This document shows, piece after piece, positions 13,230-38,200 of a stretch of 64,000 bases of DNA (positions within the stretch are counted from its first letter, which is position 1; every line of letters begins with the position of its first letter). Both the position numbers and the translations under genes were made by a program. The notes below the pieces were generated by a model. It ran no database searches and was not told the DNA's origin. It saw only the letters and a program-made list of their open reading frames with translations. The stretch is taken from the NCBI GenBank assembly GCA_951406725.2, contig OX597839.1, positions 40,114,001 to 40,178,000 of the forward strand, given 5' to 3'. This stretch comes from Octopus vulgaris. Taxonomy: Eukaryota.

Positions 13230-13915
13230 CCGACGAGCTGGCAGAAACGTTAGCACGCCGGGCGAAATGCGTGGCCGTATTTCGTCTGCTGTTATGTTCT
13301 GAGTTCAAATTCCACCGAGGTCGACTTTGCCTTTCATCCTTTCGGAGTCGATAAATTAAGTACCAGTTACGCACTGGGGTCGATGTAATCGACTTAATAC
13401 CTATGCCTGTCCTTGTTTGTCCTCTCTGTGTTTAGCCCCTTGTGGGTAGTAAATAAATAGAAATAGGTATTTCCGTTTGCCGTTACGTTCTGAGTTCAAA
13501 CACCGCCGAGGTCGACATTGCTTTTCATCCTTTCGGAATCGATAAATTAAGTAGCAGTTACGCACTGGGGTCGATGTAATCGACTTAATCCGTTTGTCTG
13601 TCCTTGTTTGTTCCCTCTGTGTTTAGCCCCTTGTGGGTAATAAAGGAATAGGTATTTCGTCTGCCGTTACGTTCTGAGTTCAAATTCCGCCGAGGTCGAC
13701 TTTGCCTTTTATCCTTTCGGGGTCGATAAATTAAGTACCAGATACGCACTGGGGTCAATATAATCGACTTAATCCCTTTCTCTGTCCTTGTTTGTCCCCT
13801 CTGTAGGTAGTAAACAAATAGGTATTCCGTTTGTATGCCCTTGTCTGTGTGTAGCCCCCTGGTGAGCAGTAAAGAAATAAGAAACGCTAGCACGCCGGGC
13901 GAAATGCTTAATCGG
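13230..13915 (+). repeat. Tandem concatemer of SINE-B bodies (one head plus about 3 units of about 185-190 bp)
   Basis: Head gagctggcagaaacgttagc at about 13235. The body restarts at ggtattt(c)cgt after the A-rich tail near 13467, 13651 and 13821. Confidence 0.8.
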
Positions 13916-19638: not shown

Positions 19639-20171
19639 ATATATATATATATATTACCTGTAACATATGTACAACCCGGATGTGGATAATCTAGGACCTA
19701 GTTTTCGAAGTTTCCTAATTACGTTCGCTAACGTAAATTTGATTAGTTCTCTTCGGCTAGACTCACCATGACAAAATTTCCAATGTTGTTACACCAGCGC
19801 CAGTTTACTTCTTTGTTTTACTAGGAAACAATATTACTGTATTGCACAATTTGATAATTCTTTCTTTGAATACATACATACATACATACATACATACATA
19901 CATACATACATACATACATACATACATAGATTCATGCATACATACATACATATATATATATATGCATGAAACGTAAAAGACTTTCTCACCTCCTCGAGCG
20001 TCAACTTAATACACCTGCTTCGTCTTTTGTTTTTCTGTAAATTTCAATCACACACATATATATATATATATACCCACATTCGTACATACATATATACATA
20101 CATAGATGCATATATACAAAGTACACACACACACGCACAAACACAAACACACACACGCACACGCACACACA

Positions 20172-20228
<57 letters not shown>

Positions 20229-20235
20229 CTCTTTC

Positions 20236-20636
20236 TCTTTCTCTTTTACTTGTTTCAGTCACTTGACTGCGGCCAAGCTGGAGCACCGCCTTTAATCGAG
20301 CCACTCGACCCCGGGACTTATTCTTTGTAAGCCCAGTACTTTTTCTATCGGTCTCTTTTTTGCCGAACCGCTAAGTGACGGTGGTCGTAAACACACCAGC
20401 ATCGGTTGTCAAGCAATGCTAGGGGAACAAAGACAGACACACAAACAAACACATATATATATATACATATATACGACAGGCTTCTTTCAGTTTCCGTCTA
20501 CCAAATCCACTCACAAGGCATTGGTCGGCCCGGGGCTATAGCAGAAGACACTTGCCCAAGATGCCACGCAGTGGGACTGAACCCGGAACCATGTGGTTGG
20601 TTAGCAAGCTACTTACCACACAGCCACTCCTGCGCC
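20236..20636 (-). mobile_element. Full-length SINE family A
   Basis: Reverse complement of family A from the tail ctcttttacttgtttcag to the head cactcctgcgcc. Confidence 0.9.
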
Positions 20637-20648
20637 TATATATATATA

Positions 20649-21056
20649 CTCTTTACTCTTTTAATTGTTTCAGTCATTTGACTGCGGCCATGCTGGAGCA
20701 CCGCCTTTAATCGAGCAACTCGACCCCGGGACTTATTCTTTTGTAAGCCCAGTACTTATTCTATCCGTCTCTTTTGCCGAACCGCTAAGTAACGGGGACA
20801 TAAACACACCAGCATCGGTTGTCAAGCAATGCTAGGGGGACAAACACAGACACACAAACACACACACGCATATATATATATATATACATATATACGACGG
20901 GTTTCTTTCAGTTTCCCTCTACCAAATCCACTCACAAGGCTTTGGTCGGCCCGAGGCTATAGTAGAAGACACTTGCCCAAGGTGCCACGCAGTGGGACTG
21001 AACCCGGAACCATGTGGTTGGTAAACAAGCTACTTACCACACAGCCACTCCTGCGC
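20649..21056 (-). mobile_element. Full-length SINE family A, tandem with the previous copy
   Basis: Same structure, separated from 20236-20636 by about 12 bp of TA. Confidence 0.9.
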
Positions 21057-22077
21057 ATATACACAGTTTTAACAAATGAACTTTGTTAATCCTTGTTTGG
21101 TCTGGAATGTTATCTGCACATTGATATACTGGGCAAACAAGTGCTATGAGAGATTTAGTATTCGCGCCTTTGTCAGTATTTGAGAGTTTCTATCGACAAT
21201 TGCGTTCAATAATTCTAGGATACATACCAAAGTTTCAGCAGGAATTGAGTCTGTAAAGAGGCGTTCACACATGTATGCATATGTAAGAGGAGTTATGTTC
21301 GTATTCATACGTGCATTTTACACACCCAACCAAACATCCGCCCACACACCCACGCACACCCGCAAATACTCACAAACAAACAGATGAAAATGGGTAGGGA
21401 TATATATACACTCTATGCAGACAGGCAGCTATAAATGTATGTATATATATATGGATATGTGTCTGTATGAATTGAAACTCTCTATACATATATATATATA
21501 TATATATATACCATATATGTATGCATATATGCAAAGTTACTAAATCGTTCATACTCACACATACACACATACACACACACTCACACACACACATATATAT
21601 ATACATATATACATATCTGTGTATGTGTTTGTGTATCAGTGTATATATTGAACCATATGTATTGCAAAAATGAATTGATTTCATATATATACAGGTATAT
21701 ATATCTATATATATATACACATATATACATATACTTATTCACACACACACATATGTACCTGTATATACCTATATATATACATATATACATACACACACAC
21801 ACACACTCACACACACACATATATATATTTATATATATATACTTATAAACATATATATATATATATATATATATATGCCCGCGTATTTAGGTCTGATGCA
21901 ATGAATGAGTGTATATACTAATTAGAGGGAACGCATCTAACTTAAAATGTTCCAGATATTCTTTGTACCATTGAAAATACAGATTTTTGGGATAACTACT
22001 TTGTGTTGTAATGCTAGGTTTCTTATCGATTTTGCTTCTGTCACTTCCATCGCCGTTGTTGTTGTTATTATTATTAA

Positions 22078-22144
<67 letters not shown>

Positions 22145-22227
22145 GTTGTTGTTGTTGTTATTATTATCATTGTCATTATTATTATCATTATTATTATTAT
22201 TATCGTTGTCATTATTATTATTGTTGC

Positions 22228-22258
<31 letters not shown>

Positions 22259-22410
22259 GTTATTATTATTATTATTTTTATTATTATTATTATTATCGTT
22301 GTCATTATTATTGTCATTATTATTATCATTCTCATTATTATTATCATTGTCATTATTATTATTATTAATATTATTGTTACTATAATTGTTATTATTATTA
22401 TTATTATTCA

Positions 22411-22446
<36 letters not shown>

Positions 22447-23518
22447 CATTATTATCAGCATTACTGTTGTTGATGTTGTTATGATATCTGTTAGGGTACT
22501 GATGGTGGTGGCGGAGGCGATGGTGTTGGCGCTGCCGATATTACTTGGTGATGTTTCTCGCTTTCGTTTGAGGTTTTCCGTTGCTGGTGGCGCTAATAAC
22601 AATGGCGTTTCGTACTTTGGGCAATGCCTGTGGCTAGATCTGGTGTTGGTGTTGTTGATGGTATTGGTGGTAGTTTTAGTGGTTGCTTTAATGTTAGTGC
22701 TAATGGTTTTATTGTTTAGGCGTTAGTTGTGTTGTTAGTGGTGCTGGTGACGTTACTGGTGGTAGCTTAGTGGTTGCGTTGGTGTTAGTGGTAGTGGTTT
22801 GGTTGTTTAGACGTTAGCCGTAATGGTTACGGTTTTGTTGTTGTTGATATATGTAGTGGTATTATTTCTGTTTGAATCGTGTATGTAATGGCATCAGTGG
22901 TGTTTGTGACAGTGGTGTTTGTGATGGTATTGGTGGTGGTCTTAATGGTTACATTAGTGCTAGTGGTAGTGGTTTAGTTGCTTGAGCATTCATCCTGATG
23001 ATGTTCGTGGTGTTGTTGCTATATGTTGTGGTGCCATTTTGGTTTGAGTTCTGGATGTAGTGGCATTAGTGCTGTTCTTATTGTGGTGCAGGTGGTAGTA
23101 TTGGTGGTCGTGTTGCTGGTGTTTGTAGTGACGCTGGTGGTTTGATCTCGGACGAAATGCCCTGCAGCATTTCTTCCGGCGTTTTTACGCTCTGTGTTCA
23201 GATTGCGCTGAGGTCAGCTTTGCCTTATTCTTGTAATTAAGTAAATATTAAAAAAAATAATGAGAATACAAACGTTGTTGTATTAACGAGACTATACAGG
23301 TGTGTGTCCCATATTATTTTAAATCGAGGAGACAGACAGAGTAATTAAGGTAGGTATTCAAACAATTGACAGTGATATTACGGAGATGTACTCGCATAGC
23401 AAGTAATTTGATCTGAGATCGTGTGCTGAAACGAAAACAATTGTAGCGTGGAAGGTGTTTGAAGCCATTTAAGAAACACACAAAAGCCGTTCGATTCACT
23501 TCAACATTTAAGTTTAAT

Positions 23519-23566
23519 TTGTCAAAATATTTTCGTCGCTAAAATCCGCGACCTGCTCACTGACAA
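23519..23566 (-). ncRNA. Putative minimal type-I hammerhead ribozyme, G3:C8 core variant
   Basis: UUGUCA-GUGAGCA-G-GUCGC-GGAUUUUA-GCGAC-GAAA-AUAU-UU-UGACAA. Confidence 0.65.
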
Positions 23567-23744
23567 AAATCCGTACTGCATCTGAGAAAGTAACAGTTAG
23601 TTCATTATATATATGTACGTATGTATGTGTGTATGTATGTATACACGCATGCATGCATGCATGCATGCATACATGCGTGTATACATACATACTTATATAT
23701 ATATAACGAACTAACTGTTACTTTCTCAGATGCAGCACGGATTT

Positions 23745-23792
23745 TTGTCAGTGAACAGGTCGCGGATTTTAGCGACGAAAATATTTTGACAA
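23745..23792 (+). ncRNA. Putative minimal type-I hammerhead ribozyme, G3:C8 core variant
   Basis: UUGUCA-GUGAACA-G-GUCGC-GGAUUUUA-GCGAC-GAAA-AUAU-UU-UGACAA: 6-bp stem I, 5-bp stem II and a palindromic AUAU loop III. Confidence 0.65.
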
Positions 23793-23884
23793 ATTAAACT
23801 TAAATGTTGAAGTGAATCGAACGGCTTTTGTGTGTTTCTTAAATGGCTTACAAACACCTTCCACGCTGACAGTGATATTGTTTG

Positions 23885-24640
23885 ACGGCTAAACAAAGCA
23901 GTTCTAATTTAAATGAAATCTAGAAAGAAAAATTTAACATTAGCAAGGATAGATTGTAAGAAAGCATATGACATGATTCCACAGTGAACTTTCAAGCATA
24001 TTTCGTATCGCAGACAATATCAGAGAGTTAATTAGCTATTGCATGAAGAAATGGAAGGTAAATATTCTTCCCAGGTAATACAGCCTTCGGGGGAAGCTAA
24101 TATGAACAGAGTAATTTTCCAAAGAGACACGTTATCTCCTTTCATAATTGTGTCCTGTTTTATCCTCCTCATTATTAAGTGATGCAAAGTCGAGGTATAA
24201 GTTTAGAGATAGTAGGGGAAGGGTTAACCATTTGCTCTACATGAATGATGTGGTGCTTTTTAGTAAGAACTTGCAGTATCGACCGGCGTTGCTCGGGTTT
24301 GTAAGGGAAATAACTATATAAGCATTTTTAGAGAGTTATAGCCAAAAAATAGCAAAAAAATGCATAAAAATGGAAAAAAAATTATGGTAAATTTTTTTTA
24401 AAATCGTAGACTCATCGTAGACGCGCGCTAATACCCAGAAGGGTTCGATATGAATCACGACTATAAGATACCCGGTTTTGGTTAAACTGCACCGCAAAAT
24501 GTGGGAGTAGTTAGGAATCTAAATCGTAGGAGACAGACACACAAATTCACTTTTATATATAAAGATAAATAAAAAGAGATAGAACCCTTTATAAAATATG
24601 TAAGGGTCTTCACCGAAGATGTAAGTATGGAATTTGGTGA
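23885..24640 (+). pseudogene. Decayed R4/Dong-type reverse transcriptase fragment interrupted by a Helitron
   Basis: Translates to LNKAVLI*MKSRKKNLTLARIDCKKAYDMIP, VIFQRDTLSPF and VNHLLYMNDVVLFSK, then resumes after the Helitron as VRVFTEDVSMEFG. Confidence 0.8.
24270..24565 (-). mobile_element. Non-autonomous Helitron-like element, copy 2
   Basis: Minus strand starts TC(tttatatataaaa) and ends with the cccgagcaacgccgg hairpin plus CAAG. It sits between A24269 and T24566 without a TSD. Confidence 0.75.
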
Positions 24641-24714
24641 AGTCGACCTCGGCGGAGTTTGAAATCAGAGCGTATAGATGGACAAAACGTTACTAAGCAT
24701 TTTGCCCGGCGAGC

Positions 24715-29100
<4,386 letters not shown>

Positions 29101-36186: not shown

Positions 36187-36836
36187 ACTTTTTTTTTCTT
36201 CTTTCAAATTTGCTTCCATTTCTTGCCGAGTGTCTTCCCGACTCCTAGGGCAAAGAAACTCATAGTATACATTGGTAGGCCATTAAACCAAACTCAATAG
36301 TTCGTTCATTTAAAAAAAAATTTTTTTTTAAGTTAAATTAAAATACATGAGCAGCAACAGTTCTCACATCGACAATGCTCTTCTCAATACGTGTGATGTA
36401 CCAGTTAAGACAATCTTTTGCACTTCTTGCAGGGATGGTAAGCCAGGGATCATTCTCATATAATTTTCGGTTCCCTTCTTGATCATTCCTAGTGCTCCTA
36501 CGATCACTGGTATTGTAACCGCCTTGAGATGCCACATTTTCTCAATTTCAATGAGTAGGTCTTTATATTTTCTGAGCTTGTCAAACTCTTTCGCTGAGAT
36601 ATTATGATCACAGGGGATGCTCATGTCGATCAATAAGCAAACTTTATTGTTTTGGTCTTTCACAACAATATCTGGTTTATTGGCCTTGATGGTTCGGTCT
36701 GTATGTACTGGAAAGTCCCACAGAATGGTTACATTTTCTCCTTCAGTTACAGCCTCAGGGTGGTGATTATACCAATTGTCGGCAGTTTTGATATTGTAAT
36801 GCCGATTTATTAGCCAGTGTAGATATTGGCCAACTC

Positions 36837-36840
<4 letters not shown>
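36187..36840 (-). mobile_element. 5'-truncated R4/Dong-clade non-LTR retrotransposon (restriction-like endonuclease domain plus 3' UTR)
   Basis: Open frame 36840-36364: NRVGQYLHWLINRHYNIKTADNWYNHHPEAVTEGENVTILWDFPVHTDRTIKANKPDIVVKDQNNKVCLLIDMSIPCDHNISAKEFDKLRKYKDLLIEIEKMWHLKAVTIPVIVGALG...RRALSM*, carrying PD..D and KxxKY RLE motifs. Both flanks are (TAA)n on the element strand. Confidence 0.92.
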
Positions 36841-36912
<72 letters not shown>

Positions 36913-37071
36913 GTTGTTATTATTATTATTATTATTCCACCTCGGCGGAATTTGAACGTAGCCACGGGCGAAATACAGCTAAGTATTTCACCCGGCATGC
37001 TAACGGTGCTGCCAGCTTGACTCCCTCTCAAAAGCAACATCAGCATTAACAGCAACAACAATAATAATTAT

Positions 37072-38200
37072 TTCAAATTTTTGCCACAATGAAAGCTTGG
37101 TGGAGGTGGGGATGAGTTGATTACATCGACCCCAGTGCGTATCTGGTACTTAATTTATCGATCCCGGAAGGATGAAAGGCAAAGTCGACCTCGGCAGAAT
37201 TTGAACTCAGAACATAACGGCATACGAAATACCTATTTCTTTACTACCCACAAGAGGCTAAACACAGATAGGATAAACAAGGACAGATAAACGGATTAAG
37301 TCGATTACATCGACCCCAGTGCGTATCTGGTACTTAATTTATCGATCCCGGAAGGATGAAATGCAAAGTCGACCTCGGCAGAATTTGAACTCAGAACGTA
37401 ACGGCATACGAAATACCTATTTCTTTACTACCCACAAGGGGCTAAACACAGAGAGGATAAACAAGGACAGATAAACGGATTAAGTCGATTACATCGACCC
37501 CAGTGCGTAACTGGTACTTAATTTATCGATCCCGGAAGGATGAAAGGCAAAGTCGACCTCGTCAGAATTTGAACTCAGAACGTAACGGCATACGAAATAC
37601 CTATTTCTTTACTACCCACAAGGGGCTAAACACAGAGAGGATAAACAAGGACAGATAAACGGATTAAGTCGATTACATCGACCCCAGTGCGTAACTGGTA
37701 CTTAATTTATCGATCCCGGAAGGATGAAAGGCAAAGTCGACCTCGGCAGAATTTGAACTCAGAACGTAACGGCATACGAAATACCTATTTCTTTACTACC
37801 CACAAGGGGCTAAACACAGAGAGGATAAACAAGGACAGATAAACGGATTAAGTCGATTACATCGACCCCAGAGCGTAACTGGTACTTAATTTATCGATCC
37901 CGGAAGGATGAAAGGCAAAGTCGACCTCGGCAGAATTTGAACTCAGAACGTAACGGCATACGAAATACCTATTTCTTTACTACCCACAAGGTGCTAAACA
38001 CAGAGAGGATAAACAAGGACAGATAAACGGATTAAGTCGATTACATCGACCCCAGTGCGTAACTGGTACTTAATTTATCGATCCCGGAAGGATGAAAGGC
38101 AAAGTCGACCTCGGCAGAATTTGAACTCAGAACGTAAAGGCCGGGCGAAATACAGATAAGCACTTTTCTCCACGTGCAAAATTATTCTGCCAGTTCGCTG
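37072..38200 (-). repeat. Tandem array of 184-bp SINE-B bodies (5 full units plus a partial) behind a single SINE head
   Basis: ttacatcgacccc recurs at 37121, 37305, 37489, 37673, 37857 and 38041. A diverged head lies at about 38140-38200. Confidence 0.92.

What the first reader, a model, noticed from the sequence alone, without database searches (positions are those of the whole stretch)
23367..23879. TSD-flanked inverted pair of hammerheads with a G3:C8 swapped core (GUGAnCA)
Seen: a 487-bp insert between 13-bp direct repeats (tgacagtgatatt), with two arms diverging from a central microsatellite. Each arm has a 6-bp stem I, 5-bp stem II, GAAA, AUAU loop and UU site. The core is GUGAACA in one arm and GUGAGCA in the other instead of CUGAnGA, and the two 48-nt motifs differ only at position 7, the freely variable core position. 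Known: C3 and G8 form a Watson-Crick pair in the active hammerhead fold, so G3+C8 is the exact compensatory double change, and standard CUGAnGA searches miss it. Inference: a natural variant ribozyme family that moved as one fold-back unit.
Basis: partly seen in the sequence, partly recalled or inferred. Interest (0 to 1): 0.85.

Follow-up and report, generated by a model that had tools for sequence, protein, structure and literature searches.

The report
Penelope hammerhead with swapped core pair
This is a back-to-back pair of cut-short ends of a very common jumping gene (a Penelope-like element), each carrying a hammerhead-type RNA in which two paired core letters are swapped (G3:C8 for C3:G8), a natural variant that standard searches miss and that is predicted, not shown, to cut itself.

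Summary
In detail: a 487-bp insert between 13-bp direct repeats, with two opposite-strand hammerhead-like motifs (cores GUGAAC and GUGAGC). The insert is not a mobile fold-back unit. It is two 5'-truncated ends (pseudo-LTR plus ORF start) of a Penelope-like retrotransposon (RT, CxxxCxxC linker, GIY-YIG) with at least 3,500 motif copies in this genome. All 24 inverted pairs examined join one long and one short end, with centre spacing from 21 to 2,942 bp, as expected if each is made at insertion. The G3:C8 core is real and family-wide (1,934 of 2,010 copies in one subfamily). Related elements carry the same motif at the same place with C3:G8 (9 sequences) or U3:A8 (2), never a mismatch, and the sister family is C3:G8. 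N7 does not vary freely here; the left arm's G7 is a rare point change. The two arms are on opposite strands, so they cannot form a dimer in one transcript. Cleavage is untested, and nearly all copies come from uncut RNA. I found no natural G3:C8 in the searchable papers, but engineered C3G/G8C is known to be partly active, and this scan noted G3:C8 before in protist elements and phages. New variant of a known kind; interest 0.5.

The parts
23367..23379 (.). Left copy of the 13-bp direct repeat (target-site duplication; 8-13 bp allowing for overlap with the element ends)
   Evidence: similar 12-14-bp duplications at L031, L148, L151
23380..23655 (-). Left arm: 5'-truncated end of the Penelope-like element, with the long ('tail') end, stopping about 30 codons into the ORF
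23380..23468 (-). Start of the element's ORF (ATG at 23468; 1-nt deletion in this copy); the last ~60 nt are the optional tail
   Evidence: L044 shows motif, ATG and the ORF running on
23518..23567 (-). Hammerhead-type motif, core G3 U G A G7 C8; G7 is a rare point change; predicted cut between 23525 and 23524
23605..23706 (.). Central TA/TACA/TGCA microsatellite: part of the element's own 3' UTR, where the two truncated arms meet (junction near 23655/23656)
23656..23866 (+). Right arm: 5'-truncated end of the element, with the short end
23728..23728 (+). Preferred 5' end of many genomic copies, usually with an extra G in front; inferred transcription start with a cap-derived G (a 3' splice site is the alternative); mirror position 23583 on the - strand
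   Evidence: 29 of 40 copies truncated here have a G in front; loose ends at 23728 in three runs
23744..23793 (+). Hammerhead-type motif: 7-bp stem I, core G3(23751) U G A A7 C8(23756) A9, extra G, 5-bp stem II, GAAA, self-complementary AAUAUU stem III region, U17; predicted cut between 23786 and 23787
23843..23866 (+). ATG and first 8 codons of the element's ORF
23867..23879 (.). Right copy of the 13-bp direct repeat

Best explanation
The insert is two oppositely oriented, 5'-truncated ends of a high-copy Penelope-like retrotransposon, likely joined during one insertion event, and each carries the element's small hammerhead motif, whose G3:C8 core pair is predicted to keep weak, dimer-dependent self-cleavage. 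Shown: the element has one ORF (RT with YVDD, CxxxCxxC linker, C-terminal GIY-YIG); the motif lies about 1 kb behind the stop codon and about 90 nt before the next ATG; copies end at two fixed places in the ORF start; inverted pairs join one end of each kind; the core is G3:C8 throughout the family and C3:G8 or U3:A8 in relatives. Inferred: the endonuclease nicks both strands 8-13 bp apart, reverse transcription starts from both nicks at the two internal start sites, both cDNAs stop early in the microsatellite and join, giving the fold-back and the duplication. Inferred: two sense RNAs (tandem copies or two transcripts) pair through AAUAUU to complete stem III and cut after U17, slowly and perhaps with protein help. 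The G3:C8 swap likely arose once from C3:G8 in the ancestor of this family.
For: Linkage to the ORF: (L044: motif-ATG-ORF-motif tandem plus inverted copy). Counts: 1,927 G3/A7/C8, 7 other N7 with C8, 18 non-G3, 58 G3 without C8, no C3+G8; a second subfamily of 1,513 copies, 95 of the first 100 listed identical in the core. Loop II has at least four recurring versions while core, stems and AUAU/UU stay the same. Relatives: 13 of 13 parsed rows pair at 3:8 (G-C 2 rows, one family; C-G 9; U-A 2), with stem II covariation and mostly self-complementary loop 3. Tree: this family is sister to the C3:G8 family of the same genome (SH-aLRT 99; quick tree, midpoint root). 24 of 24 inverted pairs have one long and one short end, core distances 21-2,942 bp; in L151-L153 both arms share a rare core change, as expected from one template. 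Papers: inverted truncated copies and tails are typical of PLEs (PMC8557442); a PLE protein cuts and extends both strands from two start sites, and C3G/G8C partly restores cleavage of its hammerhead (PMC11167929); min-HHRs have the extra base, G10.1-C11.1 and palindromic loop 3 and cut weakly as dimers (PMC4209133).
Against: No cleavage shown. At least 3,500 copies span the predicted cut, so they come from uncut or re-joined RNA; 5' ends at the cut are only about 1% and their excess is weak (33 against 13 at a control site; by eye 30 of the first 100 of 183 rows start at -2, -1 or +1 where 21 are expected; flat, 3 of 30 at +1, in the scripted subset). 29 copies have an unpaired G3-G8, and three loci (L082-L084) share linked changes but have different ends, so such a copy appears to have been mobilised. 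The designed double-hammerhead dimer (-27.2 kcal/mol) is less stable than two monomers (-29.4) or the best cofold (-31.3). The copies are young, so fixation inside the family partly reflects descent. Seven of 19 relative loci gave no motif. In vitro, hammerhead mutants did not affect insertion (PMC11167929).
Confidence: 0.7

Rival explanations
1. Same element and origin, but the motif no longer cuts usefully; it is kept as a structured RNA (binding site for the element's protein, control of the 5' UTR) or merely inherited, and G3:C8 is a tolerated change.
For: Nearly all copies come from uncut RNA; G3-G8 copies seem to have moved; the sister family has C at position 9, normally A; PMC11167929 found cleavage unnecessary for insertion and no reads ending at the cut site.
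Against: All three changes at position 3 among relatives come with the complementary change at 8, a pair that matters only in the catalytic fold; loop II changes between subfamilies while the core does not; small excess of 5' ends near the cut.
Confidence: 0.26
2. The 487-bp fold-back is itself a mobile unit (MITE-like or fold-back element) that carries two ribozymes and moves whole.
For: Long inverted arms and a target duplication; inverted pairs are common in the family.
Against: Arms are unequal and are ORF-start fragments of an autonomous element; centre spacing differs widely among 24 pairs (21-2,942 bp) and none repeats this one; most copies are single or tandem.
Confidence: 0.03
3. Chance resemblance of a hairpin-rich repeat to a hammerhead.
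For: No Rfam hit; the core departs from CUGAnGA at two positions.
Against: Canonical cores at the same position in the sister family and in 10 distinct relatives, with the same extra base, stem II start and loop 3 layout; Rfam also misses those.
Confidence: 0.01

Closest known systems
Minimal type I hammerheads (min-HHRs) in pseudo-LTRs of Penelope-like elements (Cervera and de la Pena 2014, PMC4209133)
   Same: Position in the pseudo-LTR; extra base between 9 and 10.1; G10.1-C11.1; short self-complementary stem III region implying dimers; thousands of mostly truncated copies; pairs on opposite strands 100-700 bp apart were noted there too.
   Different: Core is G3:C8; that paper reports C3:G8 and U3:A8 only, and its descriptor needs cuganga. 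Stem I is longer (7 bp); position 17 is U.
U3:A8 natural core variant (Perreault 2011, PMC3088659; S. mansoni Cercyon elements, PMC4209133)
   Same: Natural Watson-Crick covariation at 3:8.
   Different: Here a double transversion that puts a pyrimidine at position 8; U3:A8 keeps pyrimidine-purine.
Engineered C3G/G8C double mutant (PMC11167929 on the Anolis Poseidon element; PMC8495972 citing Martick and Scott 2006)
   Same: Same two letters; partial rescue of cleavage.
   Different: Engineered there; here fixed in a natural family of at least 3,500 copies.
Neptune/Nematis-type EN+ Penelope-like elements (PMC8557442)
   Same: C-terminal GIY-YIG, CX2-5CxxC linker, partial tandems, inverted 5'-truncated copies, optional tail, (TA)n targets.
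   Different: Tail is about 60 nt, not 30-40; 3' UTR about 1 kb and microsatellite-rich; clade not fixed against reference elements.

Membership tests
EN+ Penelope-like element | Single ORF with RT and C-terminal GIY-YIG endonuclease | tested here: met
   1,025-aa open frame in L040 with YVDD; GIY-YIG PF01541 E 1.8e-5, above cut-off. Pfam gave no RT hit; RT is read from the motif and homologue labels.
EN+ Penelope-like element | Pseudo-LTRs from partial tandems; inverted 5'-truncated copy | tested here: met
   L044, L137, L138 tandems; 24 inverted pairs
EN+ Penelope-like element | Optional tail at one end, equal to the stretch between two RT start sites in the ORF start | tested here: met
   Ends at about +124 and +184 from the core; both lie in the first ~30 codons
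Neptune/Nematis clades | CX2-5CxxC linker between RT and EN | tested here: met
   C-x3-C-x2-C before the GIY-YIG domain; definition from PMC8557442
Neptune/Nematis clades | Placement in an RT tree with reference elements | not tested
   No named reference PLEs were on hand; the tree holds only unnamed relatives
Hammerhead ribozyme (type I, minimal) | Stems I and II around the core, G10.1-C11.1, A15.1-U16.1 | tested here: met
Hammerhead ribozyme (type I, minimal) | Literal CUGAnGA box | tested here: not met
   G3 and C8 in 1,934 of 2,010 copies; no C3+G8 copy
Hammerhead ribozyme (type I, minimal) | Watson-Crick pair between 3 and 8; U4 G5 A6, A9, G12 A13 A14; H17 | tested here: met
   G-C pair; all other core bases canonical; U17, as in 10 of 13 rows
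Hammerhead ribozyme (type I, minimal) | Self-complementary stem III region for dimer formation | tested here: inconclusive
   AAUAUU is self-complementary, but the designed dimer is 2-4 kcal/mol above other folds
Hammerhead ribozyme (type I, minimal) | Self-cleavage after H17 | not testable with these tools
   Only an indirect, weak excess of 5' ends near the site
MITE / fold-back DNA element | Same unit with matching terminal inverted repeats at many sites | tested here: not met
   Unequal ends and varying centres in 24 pairs

The most novel reading that the evidence does not exclude
An animal Penelope family has run for several subfamily generations on an active hammerhead with a pyrimidine at position 8, completing natural C-G, U-A and G-C covariation inside one clade; the copies that begin at the predicted cut, including seven identical fold-back joints there, are genomic records of in vivo cleavage; and such swapped-core ribozymes are a widespread class hidden from CUGAnGA searches.
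Probability: 0.35. Interest if true: 0.7.

Novelty: new variant of a known kind. Interest (0 to 1): 0.5.

Why it matters
It gives natural, high-copy support for the 3:8 pair of the active hammerhead fold with the rarest swap, and shows that standard descriptors miss whole families (here at least 3,500 copies). With a C3:G8 sister family in the same genome it is a ready pair for testing what Penelope hammerheads do, which is still open. The 24 of 24 long-plus-short inverted pairs also give a genomic match to the two-start-site, both-strand priming seen in vitro.

Tried and rejected
Rfam: no hammerhead hit on 20000-27000 at E up to 10 (only microRNA models on the hairpin) nor at gathering scores on the window and five loci; uninformative, since canonical relatives were missed too. 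MAFFT alignment of ten motifs did not keep the core in register and was dropped for a hand-specified parse. Empty site: not seen; contigs crossing a junction carry the insert in coded organisms A and C (right junction) and D (left junction), each with under 31 element letters, so this is a hint only; no contig spanned the site. Expression: no RNA holder listed. A search for more families in this genome with a distant homologue returned only the two known. NCBIfam gave nothing; PDB gave one weak RT hit. L103 has a possible A3:U8 look-alike that lacks a proper GAAA and stem I; left out of the count. The first script was too strict (5 rows) and was replaced. Four key papers were not held (Lunse 2017, Przybilski and Hammann 2007, Martick and Scott 2006, Hammann 2012).

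Full report
Observation. The 13-bp direct repeat, the 487-bp insert and the two opposite-strand motifs are as described. The 50-nt motifs differ only at position 7. Stem I is 7 bp, stem II 5 bp, and an extra G sits between A9 and G10.1. The predicted fold has both stems, with z of -3.4 and -3.1. The arms are unequal: the left runs about 60 nt further.

What the insert is. The right arm found 1,286 first-look candidates in the 2.8-Gb own genome; the 40 scored were 99-100% identical. Three widely spaced inverted pairs enclosed pieces of an ORF with a GIY-YIG end. A protein search gave a 1,025-aa frame with YVDD, a C-x3-C-x2-C linker and GIY-YIG (PF01541, E 1.8e-5). In L044 the order is motif, ATG about 90 nt later, ORF, about 1 kb of 3' UTR, motif again, with an inverted truncated copy in front. 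So the element's ends are the first codons of its ORF, and the window holds two 5'-truncated ends. This is the layout given for Penelope-like elements in PMC8557442 (passages). The nearest named homologue is labelled Octopus vulgaris and is 98% identical to the sister family, so the host is likely an octopus.

The fold-back. I examined 24 inverted pairs, picked from the hit lists because they were inverted pairs. All 24 join one long end (about +184 from the core) and one short end (about +124). Core-to-core distance runs from 21 to 2,942 bp and none repeats the window's. Most sit in (TA)n; those in other sequence show 12-14-bp duplications (L031, L148, L151). In L151-L153 both arms share a rare core change. 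PMC11167929 (passages) reports that a PLE protein cuts and extends both strands and starts at two internal sites whose spacing is the tail. I infer that each pair is made at insertion by priming from both nicks. The two motifs are on opposite strands; a read-through RNA would form one long hairpin, so this copy cannot supply a dimer by itself.

The core within the family. For a 30-mer around the core: 1,927 copies are G3/A7/C8, 7 have another N7 with C8 (including the left arm), 18 have non-G at 3 (none is C3+G8), 58 have G3 without C8 (by eye 29 G, 18 T, 11 A; four of these also have G7). So 1,934 of 2,010 are G3:C8, and position 7 differs in only 11. A second subfamily with another loop II has 1,513 copies, 95 of the first 100 listed with the same core. 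An older, more decayed subfamily has the same core in most of five loci shown. In 136 parsed copies (a sample enriched on purpose for core variants) loop II has at least four recurring versions, the loop 3/UU stretch is unchanged in 135, and the commonest stem I variant is a G-U wobble. In contigs of five coded runs no other letter reached 5% at positions 3 or 8.

The core among relatives. The sister family in the same genome (55% identical over the RT-EN part) has at the same place a motif with C3:G8, a compensated stem II and C at position 9. Of 38 metagenome loci, 19 were read behind the ORF; 12 show the motif (three near-identical, counted once, giving 10) and 7 do not, four of them with 153 nt or less to read. 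Eight of the 10 are C3:G8 and two U3:A8; none is mismatched. My first scan favoured paired cores, so I re-read the 3' regions without that rule; L100, L101 and L113 were found by eye and L103 was left out as unclear. L099, L100, L101 and L113 have other core deviations and may be damaged copies. A quick tree (careful search unfinished, midpoint root) puts this family sister to the C3:G8 family (SH-aLRT 99), among C3:G8 carriers, with the two U3:A8 loci apart. So G3:C8 is likely derived, and position 3 changed three times, each time with the complementary change at 8.

Does it cut? Not shown. For: the covariation; all other core bases canonical; C3G/G8C partly active when engineered, also in a PLE hammerhead. 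33 copies start at the predicted cut against 13 at a control site five bases on; eight of the 33 are explained otherwise (six stem I fold-backs, one duplication, one deletion). By eye, the first 100 of 183 rows start at -5:5, -4:6, -3:5, -2:9, -1:10, +1:11, +2:5, +3:5, +4:7, +5:7, +6:9, +7:2, +8:13, +9:6; seven share one symmetric joint that fits two cDNAs ending at +1 but also fits microhomology. The 30 rows checked by script are flat. This is a weak hint. Against: at least 3,500 copies span the site; G3-G8 copies with linked changes and different ends (L082-L084) suggest mobility without the pair; the designed dimer is not the lowest-energy fold; PMC4209133 found min-HHRs weak and PMC11167929 found cleavage protein-dependent and not needed for insertion. 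I put measurable cleavage at about 0.6 and an in vivo role at about 0.4.

A preferred 5' end lies at 23728: 29 of 40 copies truncated there have a G in front where the template has C or T, and three runs show loose ends there. I read it as a capped start; a branch-point-like and pyrimidine-rich stretch just upstream makes a 3' splice site the alternative (motifs recalled).

Literature. Searches: and supplement searches. None showed a natural G3:C8 hammerhead or this family. Seen: PMC4209133 parts 1-2 of 4 and passages of one of two supplement files (natural U3:A8; descriptor cuganga); PMC3088659 passages and section 8 (natural U3:A8); passages of PMC11167929, PMC8557442 (plus supplement search), PMC8495972, PMC3884650 (engineered G3-C8), PMC6765202, PMC10085705 and bioRxiv 10.64898/2026.07.22.740005. 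Not held, seen only as reference entries: Lunse 2017, Przybilski and Hammann 2007, Martick and Scott 2006, Hammann 2012. The Lunse 2017 collection of PLE hammerhead variants and the unsearched supplement file could hold G3:C8 cases. This scan's own unchecked notes list G3:C8 motifs in four protist PLE windows and three phage windows; none matches this DNA. I did not test them.

Verdict. Real feature, ordinary insertion structure, real and apparently unreported natural core variant with good comparative support and no activity data. New variant of a known kind; interest 0.5.

Noticed in passing
L137:2148-2197 (also L041, L042, L046, L138): The sister Penelope family's hammerhead has C at position 9, normally A; L095 has the same. 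Another natural core variant that descriptors would miss.
   Followed up: partly
G000, 29 places listed; L082-L084: C8G, a transversion, is the commonest core change (29 against 18 C-to-T); seven lie on contig C29, and three loci there share linked changes with different ends, suggesting a mobile G3-G8 source copy.
   Followed up: partly
window 23230-23379 and 23880-24310: The insert sits in a decayed non-LTR reverse transcriptase; the reading continues across the site. It resembles R4/Dong-type elements (family name recalled).
   Followed up: partly
window 36364-36978 (-): 204-aa open frame that looks like the restriction-like endonuclease end of a non-LTR element (identification recalled).
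   Followed up: no
window 37115-38141, 13277-13804, 20235-21061: Head-to-tail arrays of SINE-like repeats (184 bp x 5.6 at 98% match; 191 bp x 2.8; 421 bp x 2).
   Followed up: no
L046:780-1040: An unrelated inverted pair of CUGAGGA hammerhead-like motifs about 150 bp apart, beyond the end of the sister element; possibly another PLE family.
   Followed up: no
L137 ORF, residues about 250-500: The sister family has many intact 1,310-1,312-aa ORFs with a long Asn/Ser-rich insertion absent from this family; it looks very recently active.
   Followed up: no
window 58903 (-): Loose CUGAUGA hammerhead-like hit with a 40-nt loop II; probably chance.
   Followed up: no
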